From the NCBI GenBank assembly GCA_964496425.1, contig CAZBZO010000005.1, positions 10,015 to 74,014 of the forward strand: a stretch of DNA of 64,000 nucleotides. Direction: 5' to 3'. Position numbers and translations under genes: made by a program. The stretch's first letter is position 1. The number at the start of each line of letters is the position of its first letter. Shown here one piece after another: positions 9,106 to 61,931 of this stretch. The notes under the pieces are model-generated. The model saw nothing but the letters and a program-made list of their open reading frames with translations. It did not search any database and was not told the origin of the DNA. The DNA comes from an uncultured Candidatus Saccharibacteria bacterium. GTDB lineage: Bacteria; Patescibacteriota; Minisyncoccia; Phycocordibacterales; UBA9973.

Positions 9106-10881
9106 ATGGAATCTAAAGTAGAAACAACCAAAACAGAACATTTTTCTTGGCTCGATGTGCCGAAGGCGATTTGGTATTTTCTTGATAAAGATAAAGCGAA
9201 ATTTGGCGTTTTCTTTTTTATTTTACTCGGTATTTTTTTCTACGATCTCGTACCTGTATATATTGTAGGAAAGATCGTTGATTTTTTTACTGCGTATACA
9301 CCAGGGCAATCTCTCAATTTGTTCTACTTCTATTCCTTTTTTGTTGGCTCTACGTGGATACTTGCCGCAATAATTCGCAATTATGCAAAAAATAGAATAA
9401 TGAGAATAGGTCAACATGCTCGATCAAATGCACGGATATGGGGGTTTGAGCGTCTTACAGAATTTTCACTTGAATGGCACAACAAGGAAAATACTGGCAA
9501 TAAACTTCAGCGAATTTTCACGGGCTCAGATGCGATTTACGAATTGATGAAAATAATACGAAGCAGATTGTTAAAAATTGCTTCAAGTATCGTGGGGGTA
9601 TTGGCGGTTTTCGTTTTTACAGATATAAAATTTGTCGTGCTAGTTTTTATATATAGTGCTGTATATTTATATGCTGAGTTTATTATCAGTAAGAGAATTT
9701 TTAGATTGAGTAATGAATTTAATACTCTAAATCAGTCAGCAAGTGGAACATACATGGAAAGTGCAGGCAACATACTCTCAGTGAAAGCGCTCGGTGGAGA
9801 GAGCGGTATCGTCAATCGTGTAATGAATAGAGAAATTCTTTCGAGGAACATTTCTATAAAAAAACTCAATGCGAACAGTTTTAAATGGCGAGTCTTAAAC
9901 GTTATTAGCGGCGCTGCGATCGGAGTATTCTTATTAATGACAGGATTTTCTGTACTTTCATCAGCGTTGACTTTAGGAATGGTTCTTGTGTTTTACACTT
10001 ATTTCTCAAAACTCGGTGAATCATTGGCAGATATGAGCGATTTACATTCTGACATGCTAGACGTGCGGTCAAATTTGGCACATATGATGCCGATATTTCG
10101 TGAGACGGAATTTATTAAAACCGGTAATGAAAGTTTCCCAGAATATTGGAATGCGATCAAGATAAATAACATTTCGATGGATTATGGATCAGGCCAGCAT
10201 GGACTCAAGGATTTTAGTTTAGAAATCGCACGTAATTCTAAAGTGGGCATTGCTGGGACCTCCGGCTCGGGTAAGTCGACGCTTGCGAAAATTATTTTGG
10301 GACTCTATAAAATCAAATCGGGTGGAATTCATGTAGGTGAGAGGGATTATTATGATATTTCCCACAACGACATGCTCGATCATATTACTGTTGTCCTCCA
10401 AGAAACCGAGCTTTTTAATCTTTCACTTCGCGAAAACATTACTATGATGCGGACCGAAAATAGCGAGCTTTTAAATCGTGCTGTAGAAATCTCCGAGCTC
10501 GGCGCGGTGATCGACCGTTTGCCTGAAGGTCTCGATGCCAAAATCGGGGAGAAGGGCTACATGCTCTCCGGCGGCGAACGCCAACGCCTCGGTATTGCTC
10601 GAGCGATTTATAAAAATGCCCCGATTATTCTCCTTGACGAAGCCACCTCAGCGCTTGATAGTGAGACTGAAGGCAAGATCATGGCAAAGCTTTTGGGTGA
10701 GTATGGCAAGGATAAGACATTTGTTATTATTGCTCACAGGCTAGGTACATTACGCTACACGGACCGCATTGCCGTGGTAGCCGATGGCAGCGTGGTGGAA
10801 GAGGGGAATTACACCGAACTCATGAGTAAACCGAAGTCATATTTTTCTCGGATGAATCAAGAGAAAAGTCAGAATATATGA
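9106..10881 (+). CDS. ABC transporter, fused permease/ATPase (type-I exporter half-transporter)
   Basis: N-terminal 6-TM domain, Walker A GTSGSGKST, signature LSGGERQRLGIARA, Walker B ILLDEATSALD. No C39 peptidase domain. Confidence 0.9.
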   Translation: MESKVETTKTEHFSWLDVPKAIWYFLDKDKAKFGVFFFILLGIFFYDLVPVYIVGKIVDFFTAYTPGQSLNLFYFYSFFVGSTWILAAIIRNYAKNRIMRIGQHARSNARIWGFERLTEFSLEWHNKENTGNKLQRIFTGSDAIYELMKIIRSRLLKIASSIVGVLAVFVFTDIKFVVLVFIYSAVYLYAEFIISKRIFRLSNEFNTLNQSASGTYMESAGNILSVKALGGESGIVNRVMNREILSRNISIKKLNANSFKWRVLNVISGAAIGVFLLMTGFSVLSSALTLGMVLVFYTYFSKLGESLADMSDLHSDMLDVRSNLAHMMPIFRETEFIKTGNESFPEYWNAIKINNISMDYGSGQHGLKDFSLEIARNSKVGIAGTSGSGKSTLAKIILGLYKIKSGGIHVGERDYYDISHNDMLDHITVVLQETELFNLSLRENITMMRTENSELLNRAVEISELGAVIDRLPEGLDAKIGEKGYMLSGGERQRLGIARAIYKNAPIILLDEATSALDSETEGKIMAKLLGEYGKDKTFVIIAHRLGTLRYTDRIAVVADGSVVEEGNYTELMSKPKSYFSRMNQEKSQNI

Positions 10882-12590
10882 AGAAAGAAACGAAACAATG
10901 TAAGAATTGCGCAAAAGATTTCACTATAGAGTCGGATGACTTTGATTTTTATGAAAAGGTAAAGGTTCCGCCGCCAACGTTTTGTCCGGAGTGTCGCATG
11001 ATCCGCAGATTTCAGCTTCGCAACGAACGCACCTGGCATCGTCGTGTCTGTGATGCGACTGGCAAACCTCTGCTTTCTATGTTTGCATCTGATGTGCCAT
11101 ACAAAGTCTATGAGCTCAATTATTGGAAGAGTGATGCCTGGGATCCGATGGAATATGGGCACGTCTATGACTCGTCGCGCTCCTTTTTTGCCCAATTCGA
11201 CGAGCTCATGCGTGCGGTGCCGCATGCCAACTTGATTCAGAAAAACAACGCCAATAGTGACTATTCAAATGCGACGCTCAATGCCAAGAATTGTTACTAT
11301 TGTTCAAGTCTTGATACGGGGGAGGATTGCAGTTATTGCTTTACTGGCAACATTCGTATAAAAAATTGCCTTGACCTGCATCAATCTATCGATGACGAAT
11401 TCTCGTATGAGCTTGTGGATTGCCTCAAATGCAACCGGCTTTTATTTGGACAAAATTGCGAAGGATGCGTAGATTCGATGTTTTTGTATGATTGTCGCAA
11501 CTGCACCAATTGTTTCGGTTGTGTGGGACTTCGCAATAAACAGTACTGTATATGGAATGAGCAGCATTCGCGTGAGGACTATCTTGAGCAAATGAAACAG
11601 CTGCGAGCGGGAAGCTATCAGACTCTACTCGCGGCTAAAGAAAAATTTGAAGAACTGAAGCTCCGGGTGCCGCGAAAATTTGCTGTCATTCAAAAAGCTG
11701 AGAATGTTTCCGGTGACGATATTTTAAATGCTCGCAACTGCCACCAATGCTTCGTCGTGCGAAATAGCGTAGAGAACTTAAAGTACTGCTATCGTGTCTG
11801 GGAAAACTCTAAAGATATTTGGGATGGGTTTGTGGCCTGGCGTGGATCAGAAATGATGTACGAAGTAGTGAGCTGTACTGGTCAGCGTATTTATTTCTCC
11901 GCCTATATTTGGGGCGGCAATGACATTTTTTATTCGTACAATTGTTTCGATTGCAACAATATCTTTGGCTGTGTCGGTCTCCGAAGCAAATCGTACTGCA
12001 TTTTTAATACCCAATACTCGAAAGAAGAGTATGAAGTATTGATAGCGCAAATCATTGAAAAAATGAAAATAGATGGTGAGTACGGAGAATTTTTCCCTGC
12101 AAGCATTTCGCCCTTCGCGTACAATGAAACAGTAGCACAGGATTATTTTCCCAAAATCAAAGATGATGCACAGGCGAGTGGGTATCGATGGCGAGACGCG
12201 GAAGAAAAAAACTACAATGTTACGATGAAAAGCGAGGCGATCCCAGACGGTATCGCCGAAGCAAGCGACGATATTTTAAAAGAAGTGATCGAATGCGCAC
12301 ACCAAGGAGTATGTAGCGAACAATGCGCGACGGCGTTTCGTCTTACCTCTGACGAGCTCGTTTTTTACCGTACCATGAAACTTCCACTCCCACGACTCTG
12401 TCCGTCATGTCGCCACTATGGTCGGGTCAAGCTCAAAAATCCGCTTCGGCTTTGGAATCGCACCTGTACGTGCGAGCGGGATACTCATACTCACTCGGGA
12501 CCTTGTTCCAATACATTTCAAACGCCGTATTCACCGGAGCGCTCGGAGATGATATATTGCGAAGAATGTTACAATGCGGAAATAGTTTAA
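10878..12590 (+). CDS. Cysteine-rich protein, paralogue B (same architecture as 7353-9104)
   Basis: 570 aa. MKKETKQCKNCAKDFTIESDDFDFYEKVKVPPPTFCPEC matches the paralogue A N-terminus. 4-nt overlap with the ABC gene stop. Confidence 0.8.
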   Translation: MKKETKQCKNCAKDFTIESDDFDFYEKVKVPPPTFCPECRMIRRFQLRNERTWHRRVCDATGKPLLSMFASDVPYKVYELNYWKSDAWDPMEYGHVYDSSRSFFAQFDELMRAVPHANLIQKNNANSDYSNATLNAKNCYYCSSLDTGEDCSYCFTGNIRIKNCLDLHQSIDDEFSYELVDCLKCNRLLFGQNCEGCVDSMFLYDCRNCTNCFGCVGLRNKQYCIWNEQHSREDYLEQMKQLRAGSYQTLLAAKEKFEELKLRVPRKFAVIQKAENVSGDDILNARNCHQCFVVRNSVENLKYCYRVWENSKDIWDGFVAWRGSEMMYEVVSCTGQRIYFSAYIWGGNDIFYSYNCFDCNNIFGCVGLRSKSYCIFNTQYSKEEYEVLIAQIIEKMKIDGEYGEFFPASISPFAYNETVAQDYFPKIKDDAQASGYRWRDAEEKNYNVTMKSEAIPDGIAEASDDILKEVIECAHQGVCSEQCATAFRLTSDELVFYRTMKLPLPRLCPSCRHYGRVKLKNPLRLWNRTCTCERDTHTHSGPCSNTFQTPYSPERSEMIYCEECYNAEIV

Positions 12591-12605
12591 ATAGTAAGTA
12601 GAAAA

Positions 12606-13403
12606 ATGCAAACAAAAGGCAAAAAGCAACGAATAAAACCAAAAGTCATCGTCATGTCTGGCTACGGGCTCAACTGCGAAGAAGAGACCAAGTACGCTTT
12701 CGAATGGGCTGGCGCGGTGGCTGACATCGTCCATATCAATGACCTGATCGACGGACGCAAAAAGCTCAAGGGCTATCAGATCTTAGCGGTACCAGGTGGA
12801 TTTTCGTACGGTGACGACACAGGGTCTGGCAAAGCCTATGCCAATAAAATGAAAAATCACCTCATGGATGATCTAGAGAATTTTATTGCTCGCGATACGC
12901 TCATGATCGGTATATGCAATGGCTTTCAAGTGCTCACCTCAGCTGGCTTTCTACCTGGCGCGCTGACCTACAATGAAAGTGCGCGATATATCGACCGTTG
13001 GGTAGATCTCAAAATCGAAAATCAAAGAAGTCCCTGGCTCTCTGGCATTACCACGCTTTCCGTACCTATTGCTCATGGTGAAGGTAAATATATTTTTGAT
13101 GCAAAGATAAAAAAAGAACTTGAGCGTGATAATAGTATCGCACTTCGCTATACCAAAGGCGACATGTGTAAGTATCAAAATTTACAAGCCAATCCAAATG
13201 GTGCTATGGAAGACATAGCAGGCGTGACGGCAAAAAATGGTAGAATACTCGGCATGATGCCGCACCCAGAACGAGCCATGTTTTCTCATCAATTGCCAAA
13301 CTTTTCGCTTGAAAAAGAAAAAGCCAAGCGTGCCGGAAAAGAAATTCCCGAAGAAGGACCAGGACTCCAGATTTTTAGAAACGCTATAAAATATTTTCAA
13401 TAA
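12606..13403 (+). CDS. purQ: Phosphoribosylformylglycinamidine synthase glutaminase subunit
   Basis: Class-I glutamine amidotransferase features: GICNGFQ nucleophile elbow and a PHPER-containing C-terminus. Confidence 0.88.
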   Translation: MQTKGKKQRIKPKVIVMSGYGLNCEEETKYAFEWAGAVADIVHINDLIDGRKKLKGYQILAVPGGFSYGDDTGSGKAYANKMKNHLMDDLENFIARDTLMIGICNGFQVLTSAGFLPGALTYNESARYIDRWVDLKIENQRSPWLSGITTLSVPIAHGEGKYIFDAKIKKELERDNSIALRYTKGDMCKYQNLQANPNGAMEDIAGVTAKNGRILGMMPHPERAMFSHQLPNFSLEKEKAKRAGKEIPEEGPGLQIFRNAIKYFQ

Positions 13404-13406
13404 TAT

Positions 13407-14846
13407 ATGCACGACCTTACAGAAAAATGCGGTATTTTCGGCATCTATGGTCGCGACATGGATGTGTCACGCTTGGCCTTCTTCGGCCTCTTTGCGCTCC
13501 AGCATCGCGGACAAGAAAGTTCGGGTATGTCGGTCGGCGATGGCGAAAAAATAATTTCCTATCGTGGTGCAGGACTTGTGTCAGCAGTGTATAACGAGCA
13601 AAACCTAAAACGCCTGCAAGGGCATATTGCCATCGGCCACAATCGTTACTCGACCTCTGGTGCATCGGTCCTCTGTCATTCTCAGCCGATCGCGATCGGA
13701 GAAACATTTGATTTTCAAAATGAGATGCGTGAGGGAAGTATCGGCGGCTTAGTCGCTTTTGCTCACAATGGCAACTTGCCATCAGTCACGGCGCTTACAG
13801 AGTTTTTGAAAGACAAAGGTGTTTTGCTTGATGAACGTTCGGACTCTGAACTTATGGCCGAAGCGATTTTGTATTATGTAAAAAATGGCAAAAGCCTGCC
13901 GGAAGCTATGCGCGAAGCCTATCCGCTTTTTACCGGAGCATTTTCGCTGGTGGTAGCAACCAAAGATACTTTAGTCGCTGTGCGTGATAGCTGTGGTATT
14001 CGTCCGCTTTCGCTTGGGAAACTCAACGGCGGTCATATCGTAGCATCGGAGACCTGCGCATTTAAAACGATTGGTGCGGAGTTTGTACGTGATATTTTGC
14101 CAGGTGAAATGGTAGTGATTGACGATACAGGCGTACAGTCGATCCAGATCGTTCCGCCAAACCCTAAGCTTGATATTTTTGAATTTGTCTATTTCGCCCG
14201 AGCGGACAGTACAATTGACGGACAGTTGGTCTATGAAGTCCGTAAGCGCTGTGGGGAAGAGTTGGCACGAGAATATCATATTGAGGCTGATATCGTGATC
14301 CCAATCCCAGAGACGGCTATACCGGTCGCTATCGGCTACGCCAATGTCTCCAAAATCCCGATTGAAATGGCACTGGTGAAAAACCGTTACGTGCATCGAA
14401 CCTTTATCGAGCCGGAACAACACTCACGCGATCTCGGCGTGAAGCTCAAACTCGTGCCCTTGCCTGAAATGATCACTGACAAGCGTGTGGTGGTCATGGA
14501 CGACTCTATTGTGCGTGGTACAACTTCACGACAGATCGTGGCAATGCTCTTTGAAGCTGGAGCCAAAGAAGTACATTTTCTGATCAGCTCGCCGCCGGTC
14601 CGCTTCCCAGACTTTTATGGTATCAATACGCCTGATCAAAAAGATCTGATCGCTTCGCAAAAAACCGTGGAAGAAATCCGCGAATACCTCGGCGCCACCT
14701 CGCTTGGCTATTTGTCACTCGACGGCCTCGTGAAATCCACGGGTCTCCCGAAAGATCACTTTTCAATGTCGTGCTTTACCGGTGAGTATCCGATCGATCT
14801 CCACGAGCGCGCACACGATTTCTCGCACGATGTGCCAAAAAATTAA
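13407..14846 (+). CDS. purF: Amidophosphoribosyltransferase
   Basis: Ntn nucleophile at MHDLTEKCGIFGI. C-terminal phosphoribosyltransferase motif VVMDDSIVRGTT. Confidence 0.93.
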   Translation: MHDLTEKCGIFGIYGRDMDVSRLAFFGLFALQHRGQESSGMSVGDGEKIISYRGAGLVSAVYNEQNLKRLQGHIAIGHNRYSTSGASVLCHSQPIAIGETFDFQNEMREGSIGGLVAFAHNGNLPSVTALTEFLKDKGVLLDERSDSELMAEAILYYVKNGKSLPEAMREAYPLFTGAFSLVVATKDTLVAVRDSCGIRPLSLGKLNGGHIVASETCAFKTIGAEFVRDILPGEMVVIDDTGVQSIQIVPPNPKLDIFEFVYFARADSTIDGQLVYEVRKRCGEELAREYHIEADIVIPIPETAIPVAIGYANVSKIPIEMALVKNRYVHRTFIEPEQHSRDLGVKLKLVPLPEMITDKRVVVMDDSIVRGTTSRQIVAMLFEAGAKEVHFLISSPPVRFPDFYGINTPDQKDLIASQKTVEEIREYLGATSLGYLSLDGLVKSTGLPKDHFSMSCFTGEYPIDLHERAHDFSHDVPKN

Positions 14847-14861
14847 TTTTACATAAAAAAA

Positions 14862-14897
14862 GGGCGGTCTGATAATTCAGACCGCCCTTTCAATTTT
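14862..14897. terminator. Rho-independent terminator (GGGCGGTCTGA-TAAT-TCAGACCGCCC then T-run)
   Basis: Perfect 11-bp GC-rich stem followed by TTTCAATTTTTAATT. Lies between the convergent purF (+) and the downstream minus-strand genes. Confidence 0.8.
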
Positions 14898-14906
14898 TAA
14901 TTAGAT

Positions 14907-15266
14907 TCAGAATTTAATCTGATCTAAGCCGATTAAACCTGCAACTGTACCACCATTTTTGAGAAAGTAGTATCCCATCATTACCAATGCCAACAAAACT
15001 CCAGAAAGCCATCCGTCAAGGAATTCTTTCGTTTGCATAAATTTTGGGATTATTCTTTCGGAGAAACGTTCCAGTTTATTTCTGAAAATAATAAATAGAA
15101 TTGCTAACCCAATGATTCCCCAAAGCCAATACCAAAGTATTCCAATTTGAAACATTTTGTAATAGAGGGGAATGATTGCCAAAGTAGTTACTCCCATGAA
15201 TACTGGTGTTAATAATCCGGTTGACCATCCCAGAAAACGATTGCGGAATTGAATTGCAGTGATCAT
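14907..15266 (-). CDS. Small integral membrane protein, hypothetical
   Basis: 119 aa with 3-4 predicted TM helices. No recognisable family. Confidence 0.5.
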   Translation of the reverse strand: MITAIQFRNRFLGWSTGLLTPVFMGVTTLAIIPLYYKMFQIGILWYWLWGIIGLAILFIIFRNKLERFSERIIPKFMQTKEFLDGWLSGVLLALVMMGYYFLKNGGTVAGLIGLDQIKF

Positions 15267-15447
15267 GATTGTTGATTTTTGAGTTTAGAAATTAGTTTGT
15301 GAAAAGCTCTGTTTACCACAGGGGATAGACAAGGCTTTTCACAAACCGACTCAAAACTAATTTTTGTCAGAGAACAGTTATTAATAGTAATTATAGCAAA
15401 AATATCCTTATTTGTCAAGGATAAAAAACCTTGTATTTAAATGGTTT

Positions 15448-16158
15448 TTAATGCTCGTGGGGAATAAGTATCAAAATTGCCGAGAGAAGAATAGCTCCAA
15501 CGACAAATCCCCAAATGGTATTTTGGGTCCATTTCGTATGGCGAATGTCGGTACTCACTTTCCAAGAAATGATTCCGGCTGAAAGCGCAATGAGAATACT
15601 TTCAAGTGCCGCTCCATTTTTCAGGAAAAGTGCTAAGAGTACGCTTAAAGAAACAAAAAATGAAATGAAAAGTGCACGCTTTGGCTTGATACCGCTATCC
15701 ACCAGGAGTACTTGCTGTCCGCTTTGTTGGACCATTTGATGACCGATGATGCCGGCAAGGGAGGTCAGTCCCACTCCGATACTAAAACCAAATCCCGAAA
15801 TGATAGCGATACCGTCGACGATATTGTGGAGGAAATCAGAAAGAAGGATCCGCCAGGTACTGGCTTTGGTGTGATGATGTTTTCCCTCGGCACTTTCGTG
15901 GTGGTGGTGGAATTCTTTGAAATACACGCCGATCAAAATACTTATGATGAGCCCGGCAAGCGCCCAGAGGGAAGCAGGAAGTACGCCACGTTGCTCAATG
16001 GCTTCCCGGAGAAGTAAAATAACGAGCGTCGCATAGACACCGAGACCAAAGCCGCGGACTGCGCTTTTTTGGAAAAATTCTCGATTGCGAGGCAAAAGCA
16101 ACACCAAAGCCATTGGTACCAGTGCCGCAGCAAGTAAATATAAAATAATATGTGTCAC
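15448..16158 (-). CDS. zupT: ZIP-family metal (zinc) transporter
   Basis: Eight-TM topology, His-rich loop HHHHESAEGKHHH, and conserved HNIVDGIAI and GHQ motifs of the ZIP family. Confidence 0.8.
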   Translation of the reverse strand: MTHIILYLLAAALVPMALVLLLPRNREFFQKSAVRGFGLGVYATLVILLLREAIEQRGVLPASLWALAGLIISILIGVYFKEFHHHHESAEGKHHHTKASTWRILLSDFLHNIVDGIAIISGFGFSIGVGLTSLAGIIGHQMVQQSGQQVLLVDSGIKPKRALFISFFVSLSVLLALFLKNGAALESILIALSAGIISWKVSTDIRHTKWTQNTIWGFVVGAILLSAILILIPHEH

Positions 16159-16307
16159 CAGATTAGTATAAACATTATTGGAGAAGTCACAAGTATGGGG
16201 TATAAATAGGGAGTTTGGAATTACAAATTAGTAATTACTAATTACAAATTGAAATAATAACTACTAGGACGAGTATTCATTTGTAATTTTTAATTCAGCA
16301 TTATTTT

Positions 16308-17027
16308 ATGCGCATTGCATTACTTATATCTGGTAGTGGAACAACAGCCGAAGCGATCATCAAAGCTTGCACGAGCGGGCGGCTTTCGGGTGTCGAGCCA
16401 GCTCTTGTGATCGCCAGCCGTGCCGACAGTGGCGGTATTGTCCGAGCCAAAGAAGCCGGCATAAAAGAGGAAGATATCGTAGTCATTGATCCAAAAACAT
16501 TTGCGGGCAGTGAAGAGTTCGGTCAGGCGATTATTGTTGAATGCAAAAAAAGAAATGTGGATTTTGTCGGCCAGTACGGCTGGATGATAAAAACACCAGA
16601 AAATGTGATTCGTGAATATGAAGGCATGATGACCAACCAACATCCGGGACCGCTTGATCCTGGCCGTGCAGACTTCGGCGGAGTAGGAATGTACGGTATG
16701 CGAGTACATCAGGCACGACTGTGCTTTGTGAAGAAAACTGATAGGGAATATTGGAGTGAAGCCACGGCCCAACGAGTGGCAGTGCATTTCGATGAAGGTG
16801 CTGTGGTTCACAGCAAGCGTGTAGAGATACTTCCTGACGATACTGCCGAAACACTTGCCGCTCGCATGCTTCCGATCGAACATGAAGTGCAGATTGAAAC
16901 CTTACAAATGTTTGCAAATAAAGCCGTAAAGGAAATTATTCGCGATACACCATTCGTCTTCCCTGGGGAGGAAGGAATTCTTAAAGTATGTAAAAAAGAA
17001 GCTGTTCAGTTATATCCAAATGGGTAG
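16308..17027 (+). CDS. purN: Phosphoribosylglycinamide formyltransferase-like (PurN-type formyltransferase)
   Basis: N-terminus MRIALLISGSGTTAEAIIKA resembles the PurN start. N-x-H (NQHPGPL) and a downstream Asp are present. Divergent, 239 aa. Confidence 0.55.
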   Translation: MRIALLISGSGTTAEAIIKACTSGRLSGVEPALVIASRADSGGIVRAKEAGIKEEDIVVIDPKTFAGSEEFGQAIIVECKKRNVDFVGQYGWMIKTPENVIREYEGMMTNQHPGPLDPGRADFGGVGMYGMRVHQARLCFVKKTDREYWSEATAQRVAVHFDEGAVVHSKRVEILPDDTAETLAARMLPIEHEVQIETLQMFANKAVKEIIRDTPFVFPGEEGILKVCKKEAVQLYPNG

Positions 17028-17029
17028 AA

Positions 17030-17070
17030 TTTTATAAAAAAAGCGACCTTAAGTTGATAAGGTCGCTGAT
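17030..17070. terminator. Bidirectional terminator hairpin (GCGACCTTA-AGTTGA-TAAGGTCGC) with flanking A/T runs
   Basis: Perfect 9-bp stem. The reverse-complement side is followed by TTTTTTTT. Confidence 0.7.
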
Positions 17071-17088
17071 TGTGACTAATTTTAGTCT

Positions 17089-17502
17089 TTATTTTTGAGA
17101 AACTACTACCAGGAGTTTATTTTGTGTACGGTTTTTTTTCTTTGCTTCATGACCATCTTGAGTCAGAAATTCTATGCTTTCTTCAAGCATTTCTTTCATT
17201 TGTGGCCCCGCGAAAGCTATCATGTAGGAATGCGCAGGAAGCTCTATAAATTTACCAGTACTTTTACCATTTTTTATACCTAAATCTTCGGTACCTATAC
17301 CAAATACATTCCCCAAAAATTCTGGATTTGTTTTCTCGTATCCTTCAGTCTGAGCCTTTTCAGAATTCTCCATTACAGCTTGACGGATATTTGTTTCATT
17401 TACGCCATAGTGATTTAGTTTGATTAATAAATAGCCCGTAAGCCATTTTTTCTCGTTCCGGTCATGTTTTTCGGAGAGTGAACCAAGATTTATAGTTTTC
17501 AT
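17089..17502 (-). CDS. Hypothetical protein
   Basis: 137-aa ORF. No motif recognised. Confidence 0.45.
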   Translation of the reverse strand: MKTINLGSLSEKHDRNEKKWLTGYLLIKLNHYGVNETNIRQAVMENSEKAQTEGYEKTNPEFLGNVFGIGTEDLGIKNGKSTGKFIELPAHSYMIAFAGPQMKEMLEESIEFLTQDGHEAKKKNRTQNKLLVVVSQK

Positions 17503-17592
17503 TTTTTTAAATTATTTTTTCGATATTAACACTAAATTTTAAATAAGTCAAATTTTCTACTATTTTAAATTTAGTTGTGTTACTATTCCGGC

Positions 17593-18879
17593 ATGAATGA
17601 AAAGCTTACGGTTTTGCTCGTAGGAGGGGGAGGTAGGGAGCATGCGCTCGCCAAAAAAATCTCCGAATCCCCACGACTCGGTAAGCTCTATATTGCTCCT
17701 GGGAACCCTGGCACTGCCACCCTAGGCGAAAATATTCCTATCAAGGCCACAGCTCTCAATGAGCTTGGCGACTTTGCAGAACAAAATCATGTTGATCTCA
17801 CTATTGTCGGCCCCGACGATCCGCTTGCGGAAGGTATCGTCGATCTCTTTAAAGCTCGCGGACTTCGAATATTTGGCCCAGAAAAAAGTGCAGCAAAACT
17901 TGAAAGTTCAAAAGCTTTTGCTAAAGACTTCATGAATGCCCATGCCATACCGACAGCATCGTTTGAAGTGTTCAATGAATACGATAAAGCTCGTGCCTAT
18001 ATCGAAACGCAGATTTTCCCGCTGGTGGTGAAAGCCAGTGGTTTGGCACTTGGCAAAGGCGTCTTCATTTGCAAAACACTCGAGGTGGCTGAAGAGGCAC
18101 TCAAAAAAATAATGATTGACCAGGCATTTGGAGAAGCTGGAAGTCAGGTAGTGATCGAAGAATATTTGGACGGTATGGAAATTTCTACGCATGCATTTTG
18201 TGACGGTAAAACATTTCGCATGTTTCCAACCTCGCAAGATCATAAGCGAGTACTGGACGGTGATCAAGGTGAAAATACTGGTGGTATGGGTACGATCGCA
18301 CCGCTTCCGTTTGTAAGTGACGCTGAAATCGAAATTATCGCTGAAAGTGTTGTTCGACCTACTCTCGCAGGTATGAAAGAAGTAGGGGCGCTGTATACCG
18401 GTGTGCTGTATCCTGGGCTGATGATGACTACCCGTGGCCCGCGCGTACTTGAATTCAACGCTCGCTTCGGTGATCCAGAAACACAAGTCTATATGCGGCT
18501 TTTGAAGACTGATATTTTAGATATTGTCGATGCGTGTATAGATGGTACGCTTTCTGAGGTTGCTATTGAATGGTATCCAGGTTTTGCTGCCTGTCTGGTC
18601 CTTGCATCAGGCGGCTATCCAGGAGTGTATGCAAAAGGAAAAAAAATTACCGGTATTTCGAAAGCGGAAGCATTACCGGAAGTGGTGGTGTTTCATGCTG
18701 GGACGAGTATGGAAAAAGGCAAACTTGTTACTTCAGGCGGTCGCGTGCTTGGAGTCACCGCTGTAGCTGATACACTAGAAGAAGCCTTGGCGCGAGCGTA
18801 TCAAGCAGCAGCGCTCATACATTTTGACGACATGCAGTACCGGAGAGATATAGGGAAACGGGCTTTGGACAGTAAGTAG
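17593..18879 (+). CDS. purD: Phosphoribosylamine--glycine ligase
   Basis: LTVLLVGGGGREHALAKK N-terminus and ATP-grasp domain. Start chosen at MNEKL (17593). Confidence 0.92.
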   Translation: MNEKLTVLLVGGGGREHALAKKISESPRLGKLYIAPGNPGTATLGENIPIKATALNELGDFAEQNHVDLTIVGPDDPLAEGIVDLFKARGLRIFGPEKSAAKLESSKAFAKDFMNAHAIPTASFEVFNEYDKARAYIETQIFPLVVKASGLALGKGVFICKTLEVAEEALKKIMIDQAFGEAGSQVVIEEYLDGMEISTHAFCDGKTFRMFPTSQDHKRVLDGDQGENTGGMGTIAPLPFVSDAEIEIIAESVVRPTLAGMKEVGALYTGVLYPGLMMTTRGPRVLEFNARFGDPETQVYMRLLKTDILDIVDACIDGTLSEVAIEWYPGFAACLVLASGGYPGVYAKGKKITGISKAEALPEVVVFHAGTSMEKGKLVTSGGRVLGVTAVADTLEEALARAYQAAALIHFDDMQYRRDIGKRALDSK

Positions 18880-18934
18880 TGAGTAGTAAATAGTAAGTAG
18901 GGGCGCAAATTTCTAATAGTAAACTTAGAAAAGA

Positions 18935-20173
18935 ATGAAAATAATTTTTTACGAAACAAAAAAAGTACAAAATCTCTGGCCGATCGTAGCTACTCGGCCG
19001 GCTTCAGAAATATTTTGCGGTGGCGCGACGCTTTGCGATCTAGTCGGCCGGCAATTTCCTAAAATTTCACCCTCGTTTATCGTTCGTCCATATCTTGAGT
19101 CTCTTGCGTACGAACGCCATCCACGCTCGGCTCGAATAGGTAAAATTGACGATGATGTATTATTTTTAAATACAGCCATGGTGCCTGATATCAGCCTATT
19201 TGTAGAGCTTGCTCGTTCTTTCAAGGGGAAAAGTGTACGGTTTGTAAATGGCTCTCAAGTGATCGGTGCTTACCTCACAAAAAAAGATGCATTGGCAGTG
19301 TCGGAGAAGCTGGAGAAGCTTACGTTTGGCACAGTTGAACGCACTATCAAAAGTCTAGACCTACTCGAACGCAAAACTGACGCCCGTCTTTTTGAGTTTG
19401 GGTATCAAGTCGTGTCAGAAAATCAGCAGATACTTTCTTCCAATATTTCAATTCTCAAAAAAGGTCTTCGTGAATCTCGCCGCGGAGTGTATGTCGGCAA
19501 AAATGTCCGCGTCGCACAAAACGTATTCTTTGATACAAAGCATGGGCAGATTATTCTTGAAGAAAATGTTGTAGTAAAACCATTTGCGTATTTGAAAGGC
19601 CCGATCTATGTCGGACGTGATTCAGTCATCAATGAATTTTCAAGTATCAAAGAATATACGGCACTTGGGCCGGTATGTAAAGTTGGTGGTGAAATCGAAG
19701 CCTCTGTGATTCAAGGCTATTCCAACAAACAACACTACGGCGGACTTTTTCATAGCTATGTCGGCCGCTGGGTCAATATGGGTGCTGGTACTAATACGTC
19801 GAATTTAAAAAATACCTATGGCACGGTGCGGGTCCTCGGTGAGGATACCGGGGAACAATTCTTCGGCGCCATCATCGCTGACTATGTGAAGACAGCTATT
19901 AACACTGCTATTTATACAGGGAAAGTGATTGGCCCCTCTGCGCACATCTATGGAGCAGTGACGTCTGATGTTCCGGGTTTTGCAAGCTATGTGTCGGTCG
20001 GCTCGCAGTACGAGCTACCACTGCCGCTTGCAGAGAAGATTCAGAAAGCTATGGCGAAACGAAGAGACATCCCATATAATCAAACAGATGAAAAGTTACT
20101 TCTTCATCTGTTTAATGAAACAGCAACGGATCGTAAAAATGCTAAAGTCAAAAAAGGGAAGTTGCAATTCTGA
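18935..20173 (+). CDS. Putative sugar nucleotidyltransferase with C-terminal left-handed beta-helix (GlmU-like alternative family)
   Basis: N-terminus MKIIFYE..LWPIVATRPASEI and long hexapeptide-repeat region (VGKNVRV..VVVKPFAYLKGPIYVGRDSVI..). Confidence 0.5.
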   Translation: MKIIFYETKKVQNLWPIVATRPASEIFCGGATLCDLVGRQFPKISPSFIVRPYLESLAYERHPRSARIGKIDDDVLFLNTAMVPDISLFVELARSFKGKSVRFVNGSQVIGAYLTKKDALAVSEKLEKLTFGTVERTIKSLDLLERKTDARLFEFGYQVVSENQQILSSNISILKKGLRESRRGVYVGKNVRVAQNVFFDTKHGQIILEENVVVKPFAYLKGPIYVGRDSVINEFSSIKEYTALGPVCKVGGEIEASVIQGYSNKQHYGGLFHSYVGRWVNMGAGTNTSNLKNTYGTVRVLGEDTGEQFFGAIIADYVKTAINTAIYTGKVIGPSAHIYGAVTSDVPGFASYVSVGSQYELPLPLAEKIQKAMAKRRDIPYNQTDEKLLLHLFNETATDRKNAKVKKGKLQF

Positions 20174-20214
20174 TAAACTCTAAAAACTAAACTCTAAGCT
20201 CTAAATAAGTTCAA

Positions 20215-20577
20215 ATGATAGAAGATCAAAACACGCAAAAGAAATACGATCTTGATGAGCGAACTTTTATTTTTGCGAAAGATGTGAGAGAGTTTGCTAG
20301 AACATTACCAAGAGATATATATGTTATAGATGACATAAAACAGTTTATTCGATCCTCAGGATCAGTCGGGGCAAATTATATTGAAGCAAGCGAAGCATTC
20401 AGTAAGAAAGATTTTTTAATGAGAATAAAAATTTGTCGAAAAGAAGCAAAAGAAACTTGTTATTGGCTGAAACTCCTAGAGATCACAGATGCTTCACTTT
20501 CGAATAATCGTGATAGATTATTACAAGAAGCAACTGAGCTTATGAAAATTTTTGGTTCAATCGTTTCAAAAAGTTGA
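20215..20577 (+). CDS. Four-helix-bundle protein of the 23S rRNA intervening-sequence protein family
   Basis: 120 aa. Characteristic SGSVGANYIEA..SKKDFLMRIKICRKEAKETCYWLKLL pattern. Confidence 0.75.
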   Translation: MIEDQNTQKKYDLDERTFIFAKDVREFARTLPRDIYVIDDIKQFIRSSGSVGANYIEASEAFSKKDFLMRIKICRKEAKETCYWLKLLEITDASLSNNRDRLLQEATELMKIFGSIVSKS

Positions 20578-20635
20578 GTTTTGAATTTAGTATTTATTAG
20601 GGTGTAGAGTTTAGTATTTAGAGCTTATAAAATTT

Positions 20636-21580: not shown

Positions 21581-21595
21581 CTATTTTAATTGAAA

Positions 21596-21630
21596 AAGAG
21601 CAATCGATTTTGTTGATTGCTCTTTTTATT
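21596..21630. terminator. Hairpin terminator AGAGCAATC..GATTGCTCT followed by TTTTTATT
   Basis: 9-bp stem then U-run, after the tdh stop. Convergent with the minus-strand gene. Confidence 0.6.
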
Positions 21631-21645
21631 ACTTTTGCTTTTTAT

Positions 21646-22035
21646 TCATACTCCGGATAAATGCCCTTCCATAAAATCATGTTGGATCTCTTCTGCGAAA
21701 CTTATTTTTCCAAAACCGGATCGGCTGCTTAAGCTTGCATAAAAATACAGAGGTTCATTAAGCACTATTATTTGTTCTCTGAAAATAATTTCTTTGCACT
21801 TCCCAGTAAAAATCATTGTGAAGTGCTCCTTCTTCGACCAAGTCGAATTTTGTGTAAAAATTTTTAAAGTGATTTCCTGGGAGAGGGTAAGATCAAAAAT
21901 TTGATCACCGCCCACATACTGGAAACCACGTTGGAGTTCCTGTAGGCTTTCACGAGTGTTGGTGTGTGCGAAATCCATGATAATTGTTTTTACAGCAGCT
22001 CCGAGAGCCTGATGAATGCTGAGTAAGTCTTTCAT
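21646..22035 (-). CDS. Hypothetical protein
   Basis: 129-aa ORF. No family recognised. Confidence 0.4.
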   Translation of the reverse strand: MKDLLSIHQALGAAVKTIIMDFAHTNTRESLQELQRGFQYVGGDQIFDLTLSQEITLKIFTQNSTWSKKEHFTMIFTGKCKEIIFREQIIVLNEPLYFYASLSSRSGFGKISFAEEIQHDFMEGHLSGV

Positions 22036-22141: not shown

Positions 22142-22155
22142 CAAAATAAGATTTA

Positions 22156-24740: not shown

Positions 24741-24776
24741 CATTCTCTATTTACTATTTACTACTAACTATTTACT

Positions 24777-25901
24777 ATGCAAAAAATCGGCATTGTCGGC
24801 GGAGGACAACTTGGGCGTATGCTTGTTGAAGCTGCAGATCAGCTTCACTTTGAGACGATTGTCCTTGATCCGACACCACGCGCTCCTGCTGGGCAGGTTG
24901 CAACCGAGCAGATCATAAAAAGTTTCAAAGATCCTGAAGCGATTCGTGAGCTCGCCGATCGCGTGGATTTTCTGACCTTTGAAATTGAGCAAGTGCATGC
25001 CGAAGTGCTGGAAGAGATTGCAAATGATGGCAAGCCGGTCAATCCATCGCCTTCCACATTGAAAATAATCAAAGACAAATTTGAACAGAAAGCGTTTTTG
25101 CAAAACGCTGATATTCCGGTGACAGATTTTGCATTGATCGAAACCAAGCACGATGTCTGGGAGCAAGCCAAAATCTTCGGCTACCCATTTCTTTTGAAAG
25201 CTCGTTTTGATGCCTACGATGGTCGCGGCAATGCGCTCATCAAAAGCGAAGACCAAATCGATTTTGCGTACGAGCATCTTTCCAAAAGCCCACTCTATGT
25301 TGAGCGGTTTGTACCGTTTGTCAAAGAGCTCTCGGCGGTGGTGGTGCGCGGAATGGACGGCGATATAAGATCATATCCGATCGTTGAGACGATTCATCGC
25401 AACAACATTTGCCATGAAGTCTTTGCGCCTGCACCTGTGGCAGAAGATGTGCGTGAGCGTGCTGAAGCACTTGGTCGCCAAACTCTGGAGCATTTGGGTG
25501 GAGTAGGAGTGTATGCGATAGAAATGTTTCTCACAGAAAATGGAAAAATCTTGGTCAATGAAATCGCGCCGCGCGTCCACAACTCGGGCCATCATACGAT
25601 TGAAGCCTGCGCCACGAGCCAATTTGAAAATCATATCCGTGCTATCACAAGCATGCCGCTTGGGAGTACTGATATGATAGTACCGAGGGCGGTGATGGTG
25701 AATATTTTGGGGGATCGGAGTGGGGAAGTAAAGCCTGAAGGTATAGAAGAGGCCGAAGCTTTGGGTGGAGTGGCAGTGCACATGTATGGTAAGATGGAAA
25801 CGCGACCGGAGCGGAAAATGGGGCATATTACAGCTATTGGGAGTACTCTCGAAGAAGTTCAAGCCAAGGCGCGGAAGGCGAGGAGTTTGATTACAATTTA
25901 G
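24777..25901 (+). CDS. purK: N5-carboxyaminoimidazole ribonucleotide synthase
   Basis: MQKIGIVGGGQLGRM ATP-grasp N-terminus. 374 aa. Confidence 0.9.
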   Translation: MQKIGIVGGGQLGRMLVEAADQLHFETIVLDPTPRAPAGQVATEQIIKSFKDPEAIRELADRVDFLTFEIEQVHAEVLEEIANDGKPVNPSPSTLKIIKDKFEQKAFLQNADIPVTDFALIETKHDVWEQAKIFGYPFLLKARFDAYDGRGNALIKSEDQIDFAYEHLSKSPLYVERFVPFVKELSAVVVRGMDGDIRSYPIVETIHRNNICHEVFAPAPVAEDVRERAEALGRQTLEHLGGVGVYAIEMFLTENGKILVNEIAPRVHNSGHHTIEACATSQFENHIRAITSMPLGSTDMIVPRAVMVNILGDRSGEVKPEGIEEAEALGGVAVHMYGKMETRPERKMGHITAIGSTLEEVQAKARKARSLITI

Positions 25902-59723: not shown

Positions 59724-59789
59724 GATTGTAGATTACGAATTATCAATTACGAATTGAGCAGAATCGCCCAATGTGCAACCATACTGTTC

Positions 59790-61088: not shown

Positions 61089-61167
61089 CCTCTTTTAGGT
61101 ACGGTTATAAACCGCTCTTTACTTACTAATTAGTAATCTTTTAATTTTCTTTCTAGGCACTTTTATA

Positions 61168-61773: not shown

Positions 61774-61931
61774 GAACGTGCAGTCGTCTTAAGTGCTGCT
61801 ATTGTAGTATGGATATGCCCTTGACGGGAAGGGCCATGATGTGTTCTTTGGCGAGTATCGATATTTCCGATAGAAGATTTTTACCGAGAACTCCTATTTA
61901 CTATTTACCTCTTTCCACTTACTATAGGGAC

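What the first reader, a model, noticed from the sequence alone, without database searches (positions are those of the whole stretch)
12581..12600. All-frame-stop heptamer repeat TAAATAGTAAGTAG at the cassette/purine-gene boundaries
The 14-mer TAAATAGTAAGTAG (TAA/TAG in all three frames) occurs twice. One copy lies at the 3' boundary of the Cys-rich/ABC cassette, just before purQ (12587-12600). The other lies within a tandem heptamer array (agtaagtag/tgagtag/taaatag/taagtag) directly after the purD stop at 18871-18900. An inverted heptamer array sits at the other end of the downstream insert, abutting the purK ATG (24745-24776). The motif therefore marks three of the four junctions where accessory cassettes meet purine genes. 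It may be a relic or target of the insertion mechanism, or a translational all-frame stop punctuation element.
Basis: seen in the sequence. Interest (0 to 1): 0.5.

Follow-up and report, generated by a model that had tools for sequence, protein, structure and literature searches.

The report
Seven-base repeat arrays between genes
The reported motif is real: it is one of several families of short 7-base tandem repeats sitting in the gaps between genes of an uncultivated (Patescibacteria) bacterium, a known but unexplained kind of bacterial repeat, and following it up showed that such repeats in mirror-image pairs regularly cradle a small 'four-helix-bundle' gene in four bacterial phyla.

Summary
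TAAATAGTAAGTAG occurs exactly twice, at 12588-12601 and 18887-18900. With up to 2 mismatches there are 7 copies against 0.35 expected, all in spacers. It is two units of a degenerate heptamer (TAGTAAR / YTTACTA).

The purD-side (18864-18900) and purK-side (24747-24783) arrays are a 37-nt inverted repeat, 86% complementary, 5.85 kb apart. The window holds other period-7 array families (AATTACN, TAAACTC, AATTCGT). Only period 7 is enriched, and only between genes.

Close relatives show that array-bearing segments are themselves gained or lost. One relative has the same purD|next-gene junction without the array. The arrays are therefore not cassette-insertion scars.

All-frame stops follow arithmetically from 7 mod 3 = 1 plus a TAG/TAA in the unit. 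The purK-side copy lacks them, and only 9 of 29 arrays in other genomes have them.

Nested between the two arms, a second heptamer inverted repeat cradles a PF05635/TIGR02436 "23S rRNA IVS protein" gene. The same cradle surrounds homologues in 60 of 76 metagenome loci and 10 of 14 plasmids.

Best reading: these are arms of IVS-type, heptamer-periodic hairpin elements. This is a new member of a known, poorly understood repeat class, and its function is inferred, not shown.

The parts
12588..12601 (+). Two-unit TAGTAAR array (TAAATAG TAAGTAG). Its first TAA is the stop codon of the 570-aa ORF, and it ends 4 nt before the purQ ATG (12606).
18864..18900 (+). 5' arm of inverted repeat I1. The heptamer array AGTAAGT AGTGAGT AGTAAAT AGTAAGT AG (18871-18900) contains the purD stop TAG at 18877-18879. 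It has stops in all three frames.
24747..24783 (-). 3' arm of I1. It reads CTATTTA CTATTTA CTACTAA CTATTTA CT on the + strand and runs into the purK ATG (24777). It is predicted to be unstructured on its own and has no Shine-Dalgarno sequence.
61894..61908 (-). Two-unit copy (CTATTTA CTATTTA C on the + strand) in the divergent lepB/pth spacer. Its TTTACT lies 17 nt before TACTAT (61920-61925), which lies 6 nt before the likely pth start ATG at 61932.
61119..61132 (.). Weak relative: the 14-bp palindrome TTACTAATTAGTAA in the lepB|hisS spacer (2 mismatches to the 14-mer).
16217..16307 (+). 91-nt segment in the purN leader that is absent from relative L085. It holds the AATTACN array (16219-16250) and a shorter complementary arm (ATTTGTAATTTTTAATT, about 16281-16298). 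It is predicted to form a hairpin.
20166..20204 (+). 5' arm of inverted repeat I2: TAAACTC-type heptamer array immediately after the NTP-transferase stop codon.
20215..20577 (+). 120-aa four-helix-bundle '23S rRNA IVS protein' gene (PF05635, TIGR02436) lying in the loop of I2. It is absent from relative L085.
20597..20635 (+). 3' arm of I2 (GAGTTTA-type units), ending at the epimerase ATG (20636).
59732..59755 (-). AATTCGT / AATTGAT heptamer array, ending 8 nt upstream of the def start (59723, - strand).
21593..21627 (+). Terminator-like hairpin after the epimerase gene. It lies between the two I1 arms, which argues that the arms are not on one transcript.

Best explanation
The 14-mer is two units of a degenerate heptamer (TAGTAAR; complement YTTACTA). 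The heptamer forms short tandem arrays in the spacers of a Patescibacteria genome that hardly uses Shine-Dalgarno sequences. It is one of at least four unit families in the window, and all share a period of 7.

These arrays belong to the known class of intergenic heptanucleotide repeats. As in Xanthomonas and in the Nostoc trnL intron, they occur as complementary pairs, that is, as arms of heptamer-periodic hairpins. The purD-side and purK-side arrays are one such pair. A second pair, nested inside it, cradles a four-helix-bundle IVS-protein gene, which is the architecture of classical 23S rRNA intervening sequences.

Shown:
- The arrays are non-random and confined to spacers.
- The arms are mirror copies.
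- Array-bearing segments come and go between close relatives, independently of the neighbouring cassettes.
- The purD-side array is better conserved than synonymous sites.
- The nested pair and the purN-leader pair are predicted to fold into closing stems, while solo arrays are predicted to be single-stranded.

Inferred:
- Arrays grow and shrink by slippage, and they spread as hairpin elements.
- When both arms lie on one RNA, the long duplex is an RNase III substrate that punctuates the transcript, as shown experimentally for the Coxiella IVS.
- The two 5.85-kb-apart arms are probably on different transcripts. Each then acts alone as an unstructured A/U-rich linker. The purine-rich arm ends purD translation in whatever frame it is entered. 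The pyrimidine-rich arm gives purK an open, SD-less initiation region.

The all-frame stop is a by-product that limits where such arrays can settle. It is not their purpose.
For: Non-randomness: 7 matches against 0.35 expected. Only lag 7 gives arrays, all intergenic, and none appear in shuffles.

Inverted pairs: I1 is 37 nt at 86% and I2 is 39 nt at 79%. Juxtaposing the I1 arms artificially folds to -43 kcal/mol, z = -9. The solo arms give z = +0.8 and 0.0. The I2 arms close a stem around the ORF in both the MFE and centroid structures, z = -3.1. The purN-leader hairpin gives z = -2.7.

Comparative evidence:
- L085 lacks the 91-nt array hairpin and lacks the array-IVSp-array unit.
- L085 keeps the purD-side array, with 2 substitutions and the same copy number.
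- L083 lacks that array at the same junction.
- Third-codon identity between the window and L085 is 74-82%, while the array is 93% identical (28/30) and the aligned purD-NTPtr stretch about 90%.
- Where the window and L085 purD arms differ, the purK arm matches one or the other. This implies an ancestral pair of 28/30 Watson-Crick pairs plus 2 G:U.

Generality:
- Period-7 arrays occur in every spacer of an r-protein operon in L009, including CTACTNA arrays abutting start codons and an AAGTATC/ACTTGAT hairpin.
- 46% of IVSp-adjacent spacers carry lag-7 arrays, against 23% of other spacers on those contigs, 3.6% in 80 purD loci, and 1% or less at lags 5, 6, 8 and 9.
- 60 of 76 IVSp loci have flanking inverted repeats. 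In 34 of 74 the complementarity beats at least 95% of unit-order shuffles.
- 10 of 14 plasmid homologues in cyanobacteria, Bacteroidota and Chloroflexota have clear complementary heptamer cradles, each with its own unit.
- In 50 kb of the Nostoc plasmid pNPUN02, the only strong heptamer arrays flank that gene.

Literature:
- Coxiella IVS: heptamers next to S23p, with the RNase III cut at the first repeat (PMC4990558).
- TAACTGA repeats abutting start codons, overlapping upstream stop codons, without SD (PMC4679880).
- 70-75 convergent heptamer pairs in Xanthomonas (PMC4692102).
- A heptamer hairpin with indels in Nostoc trnL P6b (PMC3488679).

SD-less context: an SD core lies upstream of only 6 of 71 genes.
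Against: - No RNA data exist, so RNase III cleavage and any translational role are inferred.
- The I1 arms are separated by a terminator-like hairpin and three opposite-strand genes, so cis pairing is unlikely.
- Mismatches in the IVSp cradles show no G:U excess over A:C (92 against 121). There is therefore no sequence signature of selection for sense-strand RNA pairing.
- The TAGTAAR unit was found only in this organism's loci among the 170 loci fetched when searched. It is not the unit that flanks the IVSp gene, so its link to IVS-type elements rests on shared architecture, not homology.
- No strand rule relative to gene ends holds across genomes (A-T skew p = 0.36).
- The conservation argument rests on one relative and 30-70 nt.
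Confidence: 0.55

Rival explanations
1. Insertion scar or attachment site. The arrays are terminal inverted repeats or att-like sites left by, or used for, integration of the accessory gene cassettes into the purine operon.
For: - The arrays lie at boundaries between pur genes and extra genes.
- I1 is a 37-nt inverted repeat bracketing a 5.85-kb block whose inner gene content differs between the window and L085.
- Array-bearing segments are indels.
Against: - L083 has the same purD|NTP-transferase junction without the array.
- L085 keeps the purD arm although its island content differs.
- Copies lie at sites that are not junctions (61894; h570|purQ, which L005 shares).
- No clear target-site duplication is visible.
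- No transposase, integrase or recombinase was found in the scanned ORFs.
- Comparable arrays fill the spacers of a conserved r-protein operon in L009.
Confidence: 0.12
2. Selected translational punctuation. The arrays exist to stop ribosomes in all three frames at operon junctions.
For: - The sense-strand arrays at 12588, 18871, 20174 and 59732 carry stops in all frames.
- purD uses the array as its stop in two different frames in two lineages.
- The genome has tight, SD-less operons.
Against: - The purK-side and pth-side copies face the other way and lack all-frame stops.
- 9 of 29 arrays in other genomes have the property, about what a random heptamer gives.
- Any heptamer containing a stop triplet has the property, and any array overlapping a stop codon must contain one (PMC4679880).
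Confidence: 0.08
3. Neutral microsatellites. The arrays are heptamer simple-sequence repeats produced by polymerase slippage in AT-rich spacers, with no function. The inverted pair is a coincidence of shared units.
For: - Heptamers are the most over-represented long SSR class in many bacteria, and slippage has been proposed as the cause (Mrazek 2007, as cited in PMC4679880 and PMC4692102).
- The units are degenerate.
- Different unit families coexist.
Against: - Copy number is the same in all strains seen, and the array is 93% identical to L085 against 74-82% at third codon positions.
- The odd second unit sits in mirrored position in both I1 arms.
- Mirrored unit order occurs in 34 of 74 IVSp cradles.
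- There is a tight, cross-phylum association with one gene family.
Confidence: 0.15
4. Protein-binding sites. The repeats are iterated binding sites for an RNA- or DNA-binding protein that regulates translation or transcription of the flanking genes. Candidates are S1 or cold-shock-like proteins, as proposed for TAACTGA repeats, or the pentameric four-helix-bundle protein itself.
For: - The arrays abut start codons in an SD-less genome.
- Solo arrays are predicted to be single-stranded.
- The arrays are conserved.
- One copy supplies a -35-like hexamer.
- The PF05635 family includes the nucleic-acid-binding DGR protein Avd (PMC10053308). That it binds nucleic acid is from my own knowledge of Avd.
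Against: - No binding data exist.
- The unit sequences differ between arrays in the same genome.
- Orientation relative to start codons is inconsistent (12588 against 24747).
- A 7-bp period does not fit helical phasing on DNA.
Confidence: 0.1

Closest known systems
Intergenic TAACTGA heptamer direct repeats of Beggiatoaceae, cyanobacteria and Bacteroidetes (MacGregor 2015, PMC4679880)
   Same: - 2-6 tandem heptamers, some with related variant units between them.
- Almost all intergenic, often ending 1 nt before a start codon or overlapping the upstream stop codon.
- All-frame stops in the forward orientation.
- No Shine-Dalgarno sequence.
- Present in ribosomal-protein operons.
- Function unknown.
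   Different: - The unit sequence is TAGTAAR, not TAACTGA.
- The host phylum is Patescibacteria.
- Here the arrays occur in both orientations and as long-range inverted pairs, whereas only one inverted case was reported in BOGUAY.
Heptameric long simple-sequence repeats, including GGGAATC arrays of Xanthomonas and GGGGAYT of Nostoc (Rehm 2015, PMC4692102; Mrazek 2007 as cited there) and cyanobacterial STRR heptamers
   Same: - Period 7, with 5 conserved and 2 variable positions.
- Intergenic, usually about 4 units.
- 70-75 convergent (inverted) pairs in Xanthomonas.
- Conserved position between related species.
   Different: - Those arrays are G-rich and form quadruplexes, whereas these are A/T-rich and cannot form G4 structures.
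- No link to PF05635 genes was reported there.
23S rRNA intervening sequences with an S23p ORF (Coxiella, Leptospira; Warrier 2016, PMC4990558)
   Same: - A PF05635 ORF lies in the loop of a long inverted repeat.
- Tandem heptamers lie directly upstream of the ORF, with copy number varying between strains.
- The stem is cut by RNase III.
- The element is regarded as selfish or mobile.
   Different: - The window's element sits in an mRNA spacer between a nucleotidyltransferase gene and an epimerase gene, not in rRNA helix 25 or 45.
- The reported TAGTAAR arms enclose seven genes, not one ORF.
[quoted passage not shown]
   Same: - Degenerate heptanucleotide repeats on both sides pair into a hairpin.
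- Variation arises through copy number and through insertion of non-repeat sequence inside the hairpin.
   Different: It lies inside a group I intron, carries no protein-coding cargo, and is found in cyanobacteria only.
REP/BIME elements and their RAYT genes (from my own knowledge)
   Same: - Short palindromic spacer elements.
- The gene associated with them is itself flanked by inverted copies.
- ORF-less copies occur elsewhere.
   Different: - RAYT is a recognisable HUH transposase, whereas PF05635 has no known catalytic motif.
- In 50 kb of pNPUN02 the flanking unit was not dispersed.

Membership tests
Intergenic heptanucleotide tandem repeats (long SSRs; TAACTGA-type) | Head-to-tail copies of a 7-nt unit, at least 2 copies, more than chance gives | tested here: met
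   TRF finds period 7 with 4.3 and 4.6 copies. Only lag 7 is enriched, with none in shuffles. There are 7 matches against 0.35 expected.
Intergenic heptanucleotide tandem repeats (long SSRs; TAACTGA-type) | Intergenic position, typically abutting a start codon or overlapping the upstream stop codon, without a Shine-Dalgarno sequence | tested here: met
   All copies lie in spacers. 24747-24778 runs into the purK ATG. 18871 contains the purD stop codon. There is no SD core upstream of any array-preceded gene, and only 6 of 71 genes have one overall.
Intergenic heptanucleotide tandem repeats (long SSRs; TAACTGA-type) | Unit sequence TAACTGA (for the specific MacGregor family) | tested here: not met
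   The units are TAGTAAR, AATTACN, TAAACTC and AATTCGT.
Cyanobacterial STRR | Units CCCCAGT, TTGGTCA or CAACAGT in heterocystous cyanobacteria (from my own knowledge of Mazel 1990) | tested here: not met
   The units differ, and the host is Patescibacteria (purD best hits at 60% identity to Paceibacterota/Kaiserbacteria).
rRNA-type intervening sequence (IVS) element | PF05635 / S23p ORF inside the element | tested here: met
   Met for the nested pair I2: PF05635 E = 7.6e-14, TIGR02436 at 69.5 bits, PDB 2RLD E = 5e-12. Not met for the reported TAGTAAR pair I1, which encloses seven genes.
rRNA-type intervening sequence (IVS) element | Flanking inverted repeat able to form a closing stem | tested here: met
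   I2 is 39 nt at 79% and the stem appears in both MFE and centroid structures. I1 is 37 nt at 86%, but its arms are 5.85 kb apart.
rRNA-type intervening sequence (IVS) element | Located in helix 25 or 45 of 23S rRNA | tested here: not met
   The window has no rRNA. The element lies between protein-coding genes.
rRNA-type intervening sequence (IVS) element | Excision by RNase III | not testable with these tools
   This needs RNA end mapping or in vitro cleavage. It has been shown for Coxiella (PMC4990558).
Transposon or MITE terminal inverted repeats | Terminal inverted repeats with a target-site duplication and a cognate transposase somewhere | tested here: inconclusive
   Inverted repeats are present. 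No convincing duplication is visible at the 91-nt indel or at the IVSp unit. No transposase was found in the window ORFs scanned. The rest of the genome was not available.
Integron cassette / attC | Tyrosine integrase IntI, an attI site, and imperfect palindromic attC sites at cassette 3' ends | tested here: not met
   No integrase was found in the window. The arms are tandem heptamers, not attC-like R/L boxes. The rest of the genome was not searched.

The most novel reading that the evidence does not exclude
Heptamer-periodic repeats and PF05635/TIGR02436 four-helix-bundle ('IVS protein', Avd-like) genes may form one widespread element. The gene sits in a cradle of complementary heptamer arrays in Patescibacteria, cyanobacteria, Bacteroidota and Chloroflexota. 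It inserts between genes of operons, such as cas, DISARM, R-M and RND operons, and here a sugar-nucleotide gene pair. ORF-less arrays such as the reported TAGTAAR pair would then be its non-autonomous or decayed derivatives, with the pentameric protein binding or maintaining the repeats. If so, the long-noted but unexplained over-representation of heptamer repeats in bacteria (STRR since 1990, long SSRs since 2007) would have a genetic cause that can be tested. In the paper library searched, I found this association described only for the single Coxiella IVS.
Probability: 0.2. Interest if true: 0.8.

Novelty: new member of a known kind. Interest (0 to 1): 0.5.

Why it matters
On its own the motif is a further example, in a new phylum, of intergenic heptamer repeats whose function has been open for decades.

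It gains value in three ways. First, close relatives show that the arrays are unstable spacer elements that are nonetheless conserved, and that they are not cassette scars. Second, the window shows two nested heptamer inverted repeats inside a biosynthetic operon of an SD-less organism. Third, the follow-up uncovered a strong cross-phylum rule: four-helix-bundle IVS-protein genes are cradled by complementary heptamer arrays.

That rule connects three separate literatures, on rRNA intervening sequences, on heptamer simple repeats, and on stray 23S_rRNA_IVP genes in defence operons. It also suggests concrete experiments.

Tried and rejected
- **G:U excess in cradle stems.** I looked for more G:U than A:C pairs as a sign of sense-RNA pairing. 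There was none (92 against 121).
- **Strand rule.** I tested whether A-rich arrays follow stop codons and T-rich arrays precede start codons across genomes. The difference was not significant (p = 0.36).
- **General all-frame stops.** 9 of 29 arrays have them, about the chance rate.
- **Promoter role for the purD- and purK-side arrays.** Only a weak 9/12 match was found. Only the 61894 copy plausibly supplies a -35 element.
- **Rfam.** No family matches any array, at either the gathering or the E <= 1 threshold.
- **purK-side arm in the L085 lineage.** I wanted it to test for compensatory change. The purK cluster holds only near-identical sequences, and P0125 has no contig on record.
- **Strain variation at 59732, 61119 and 61894.** All contigs found are 99.9-100% identical to the window.
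- **IVSp relatives in viral contigs.** None were found.
- **Paralogy of the small minus-strand ORFs h137 and h129.** No protein similarity was found.
- **Apparent arrays upstream of purQ in L004 and L008.** These are Lys-rich N-terminal coding sequence, not spacer arrays.
- **TRAP-like (G/U)AG triplet binding.** Considered and rejected from my own knowledge: TRAP needs 2-3 nt spacers, and these have 4.
- **REP/RAYT-like dispersal of the flanking unit.** Not seen in 50 kb of pNPUN02.
Full report
**Observation.** The exact 14-mer TAAATAGTAAGTAG lies at 12588-12601 and 18887-18900 on the + strand. Allowing 2 mismatches gives 7 copies, against 0.35 expected from dinucleotide-preserving shuffles, and none of 100 shuffles reaches 7. 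Tandem Repeats Finder reports period-7 arrays at 18871-18900 (AGTAAGT, 4.3 copies) and 24747-24778 (CTATTTA, 4.6 copies). The first array contains the purD stop codon, TAG at 18877-18879. The second runs into the purK ATG at 24777. These two arrays form the longest inverted repeat in 12000-26500: 18864-18900 against 24747-24783, 37 nt, 86% complementary, 5846 nt apart.

A two-unit copy lies at 61894-61908 and a palindromic relative at 61119-61132. Period-7 arrays built from other units also occur: AATTACN at 16219-16250, TAAACTC at 20174-20205 with a complementary partner at 20597-20635, and AATTCGT/AATTGAT at 59732-59755. A scan of lags 4 to 12 finds arrays of four units at 80% or better only at lag 7. 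There are three, all within the 9.7% of the window that is intergenic, and none in 30 local shuffles.

**Organism and gene context.** The purD product is at most 60-61% identical to genome records, and the best hits are Paceibacterota and Kaiserbacteria MAGs. The window therefore comes from a Patescibacteria (CPR) genome with 43% G+C. Pfam gives a nearly complete de novo purine pathway: guaB, purA, purL, purQ, purF, purN, purD, purK, purE, purM, purC, purB and purH. Four relatives (L001, L004, L005, L008) carry a compact purL-purQ-purF-purN-purD-purE-purM-purC-purB operon.
- an ABC-transporter pair plus a 570-aa ORF before purQ;
- two minus-strand genes between purF and purN;
- one minus-strand gene between purN and purD;
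- seven genes plus purK between purD and purE.

L005, however, also has the 570-aa ORF before purQ, so that junction is not clearly an insertion junction.

**Evidence from close relatives.** The 90% cluster of purD led to three informative contigs. L084 is identical to the window.

L085 has third-codon identity to the window of 74-82%. It differs from the window as follows:
- purN is adjacent to purD.
- The NTP-transferase gene is adjacent to the epimerase gene, with a 26-nt spacer and no IVS-protein gene.
- Its ZIP|purN spacer lacks exactly the 91 nt (window 16217-16307) that hold the AATTACN array and its complementary arm.

The array-bearing segments are therefore themselves the units of gain or loss. 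L085 keeps the purD-side array with the same number of units and two substitutions, which is 93% identity. That is higher than at synonymous positions, and the binomial probability for the array alone is about 0.03 (my calculation).

L083 (purD DNA 84% identical) has the same purD|NTP-transferase junction but no array. A different 151-nt segment, with an alternative purD C-terminus and a perfect 22-bp inverted repeat, sits exactly where the window has 18864-18902. This separates the array from the cassette junction.

Where the window and L085 purD arms differ (positions 11 and 24 of the 30-nt core), the purK arm agrees once with each. The ancestral pair was therefore 28 Watson-Crick pairs plus two G:U on the + strand. 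The inverted repeat is thus older than the split of these lineages.

**All-frame stops.** Any tandem heptamer whose unit contains a stop triplet has stops in all three frames, because 7 mod 3 = 1. The property is real here. purD ends at the TAG of unit 1 in the window and, one frame over, at the TAG of unit 2 in L085. But the purK-side and pth-side copies face the other way and do not have it. Only 9 of 29 arrays in co-directional spacers of the purD-anchored loci have it, close to the 0.29-0.44 expected for a random heptamer (my calculation). MacGregor (PMC4679880) made the same point for TAACTGA repeats: forward repeats generate stops in all frames, so they are necessarily at the ends of ORFs. 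I conclude that the property constrains where arrays can sit rather than explaining why they exist.

**The wider class.** Period-7 arrays are the commonest TRF class in the purD-anchored loci. They are concentrated in some Patescibacteria, Chloroflexota, Omnitrophota and Zixibacteria contigs. In L009 every spacer of an r-protein operon holds one. These include CTACTNA arrays that abut the start codons of the second and third genes of that operon, and an AAGTATC array followed by its complement ACTTGAT between the last two genes. Purine-rich NNNNTAG arrays whose first TAG is the stop codon of the preceding gene recur in L141 and L145, and related purine-rich arrays follow the orthologous gene in L113 and L131.

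The literature describes the same class:
- Heptamers are the most over-represented long simple repeats in many bacteria (Mrazek 2007, cited in PMC4679880 and PMC4692102).
- TAACTGA repeats end 1 nt before start codons, overlap upstream stop codons, lack SD sequences, and occur in r-protein operons (PMC4679880).
- Xanthomonas has 70-75 convergent pairs of GGGAATC arrays (PMC4692102).
- Geobacter metallireducens has families of four or five tandem heptamers (PMC2700814).
- The P6b stem of the Nostoc trnL intron is a hairpin of degenerate heptamers that varies by copy number and by insertions (PMC3488679).

The window's organism also fits the SD-less context. Only 6 of 71 genes have even a 4-nt SD core upstream, and many first genes have a -10-like hexamer 6-8 nt before the ATG.

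**The nested pair and the four-helix-bundle gene.** The ORF at 20215-20577 is a PF05635 / TIGR02436 "23S rRNA IVS protein", and it is related to PDB 2RLD. Its flanks, 20166-20204 and 20597-20635, are complementary TAAACTC-type arrays. In both the MFE and the centroid structure they close a stem around the ORF (z = -3.1).

I fetched 80 metagenome loci with homologues at 56-70% identity. The results were:
- In 60 of 76 analysable loci, the 80 nt upstream and 110 nt downstream form an inverted repeat built from heptamers such as AAATCCT, AAACTCT or AAATTCG and their complements.
- In 34 of 74 loci, the complementarity beats at least 95% of shuffles of the unit order, so the arms are mirror copies and not merely arrays of one unit.
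- Lag-7 arrays occur in 46% of spacers next to the gene and in 23% of other spacers on the same contigs. The figure is 3.6% in the 80 purD loci and 1% or less at lags 5, 6, 8 and 9.

More distant homologues (36-47% identity) on PLSDB plasmids come almost only from Nostocales, Planktothrix, Pseudanabaena, Cytophagales and Chloroflexota. Ten of the 14 examined have clear complementary heptamer cradles, each with its own unit: AATTCAA, AATCCCC/AATCGTA, AGTGATT, ATGAAGG, GGTCGGA, AGTAAAA, AAGTCGC, GATTGCN and AATTCGC. In 50 kb of Nostoc punctiforme pNPUN02, the only strong heptamer arrays are the two flanking this gene.

These genes sit inside operons: cas2|cas1, drmD|MmeI, helicase|methylase, and RND adaptor|permease. 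That matches the earlier remark that 23S_rRNA_IVP genes occur between cas genes (PMC3936711), and they are also found in CPR rRNA insertions (PMC11270868).

In the Coxiella 23S rRNA IVS, three tandem heptamers precede the S23p ORF. Their number varies between strains, and RNase III cuts at the first repeat (PMC4990558). Apart from that single case, I found no paper in the searchable library that links this protein family with heptamer repeats.

**How the reported arrays most likely work.** Folded alone, the purD-side and purK-side spacers are unstructured (z = +0.8 and 0.0). Placed next to each other, the arms give a 35-bp stem of -43 kcal/mol (z = -9). Between them lie a terminator-like hairpin at 21593-21627 and three minus-strand genes, so pairing within one RNA is unlikely.

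I therefore read the pair as the two arms of an old IVS-type heptamer hairpin, or as two copies of one dispersed array, that now act singly. The purine-rich arm closes purD in any frame. The pyrimidine-rich arm gives purK an open, SD-less initiation region, as proposed for TAACTGA repeats. For the nested pair and for the purN leader, where both arms are on one transcript, a duplex cut by RNase III is the best-supported mechanism by analogy with Coxiella.

These functional steps are inferences. Against them, cradle mismatches show no G:U excess (92 G:U, 121 A:C, 154 transversions), and no strand rule holds across genomes.

**Rivals.**
- The insertion-scar reading is weakened by L083, by copies away from junctions, and by the absence of any recombinase in the scanned ORFs.
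- The selected all-frame stop reading is weakened by orientation and by the chance-level frequency.
- Pure slippage does not explain stable copy number, conservation above synonymous sites, mirrored unit order, or the gene association.
- A protein-binding role remains open.

**Verdict.** The finding is real and is not a cassette scar. The motif is a new member, in Patescibacteria, of the known class of intergenic heptamer repeats that occur as inverted pairs. Its most interesting aspect is what it led to: a cross-phylum association between heptamer-periodic inverted repeats and four-helix-bundle IVS-protein genes.

Noticed in passing
window 20166-20635; loci L086-L165, L171-L185: PF05635/TIGR02436 four-helix-bundle ('23S rRNA IVS protein') genes are cradled by complementary heptamer arrays. 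This holds in 60 of 76 metagenome loci and in 10 of 14 plasmid homologues from cyanobacteria, Bacteroidota and Chloroflexota. Each lineage has its own unit, but the period is always 7. In the library searched this is described only for the Coxiella IVS.
   Followed up: yes
L171, L173, L174, L176, L177, L179 (plasmid records): The four-helix-bundle genes sit between functionally linked genes of operons: cas2|cas1, drmD|MmeI (DISARM), helicase|N6-methylase, and RND adaptor|permease. This resembles NTP-transferase|epimerase in the window and looks like an intrusive operon-spacer element.
   Followed up: partly
whole window, e.g. 479, 39949, 43457, 47087(-), 53838(-), 61932: The genome hardly uses Shine-Dalgarno sequences: an SD core lies upstream of only 6 of 71 genes. 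Many first genes have a -10-like hexamer 6-8 nt before the ATG, which suggests leaderless mRNAs.
   Followed up: partly
window 479-37424: A near-complete de novo purine pathway (guaB, purA, purL, purQ, purF, purN, purD, purK, purE, purM, purC, purB, purH) is clustered in a Patescibacteria genome. To my knowledge this group usually lacks nucleotide biosynthesis.
   Followed up: no
window 17504-17555, 22046-22097, 22782-22816: A conserved promoter-like block of up to 52 nt (TTGACT, 17 nt, TAATAT/TATTAT/TATTGT on the - strand) precedes three small minus-strand ORFs of unknown function (137, 129 and 197 aa) that interrupt the operon. The 137-aa and 129-aa proteins, the only pair compared, are not similar.
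   Followed up: partly
L083 2845-2945: At the 3' end of purD, where the window has the heptamer array, the close relative L083 has a different element. It is a perfect 22-bp inverted repeat, AAAACTACTTTACAAAATTTTC / GAAAATTTTGTAAAGTAGTTTT, with a loop of about 50 nt, plus an alternative purD C-terminus.
   Followed up: partly
window 21646-23437 versus L085 6991-8117: The minus-strand genes between the epimerase and aminotransferase genes differ between close relatives. The window has ORFs of 129, 197 and 171 aa, while L085 has ORFs of 187 and 128 aa. This is a small variable island of unknown function.
   Followed up: no
L009 2158-2306 and 3812-3972: Two spacers of an r-protein operon carry the same ORF-less element. 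It has AAATCCG/AATATCG arrays, a centre of about 70 nt, then TTCGTGC/CGAATTT arrays. The units are the same as those flanking IVS-protein genes on other contigs.
   Followed up: partly
window 10878-12590: A 570-aa ORF with no Pfam match and a weak C-terminal CxxC-x17-CxxC hit lies between the ABC-transporter genes and purQ. It has a 44%-identical counterpart at the same place in L005.
   Followed up: no
window 56623-56871 (-): A small GIY-YIG-domain ORF (82 aa) lies next to tRNA-Asn (56558-56632).
   Followed up: no
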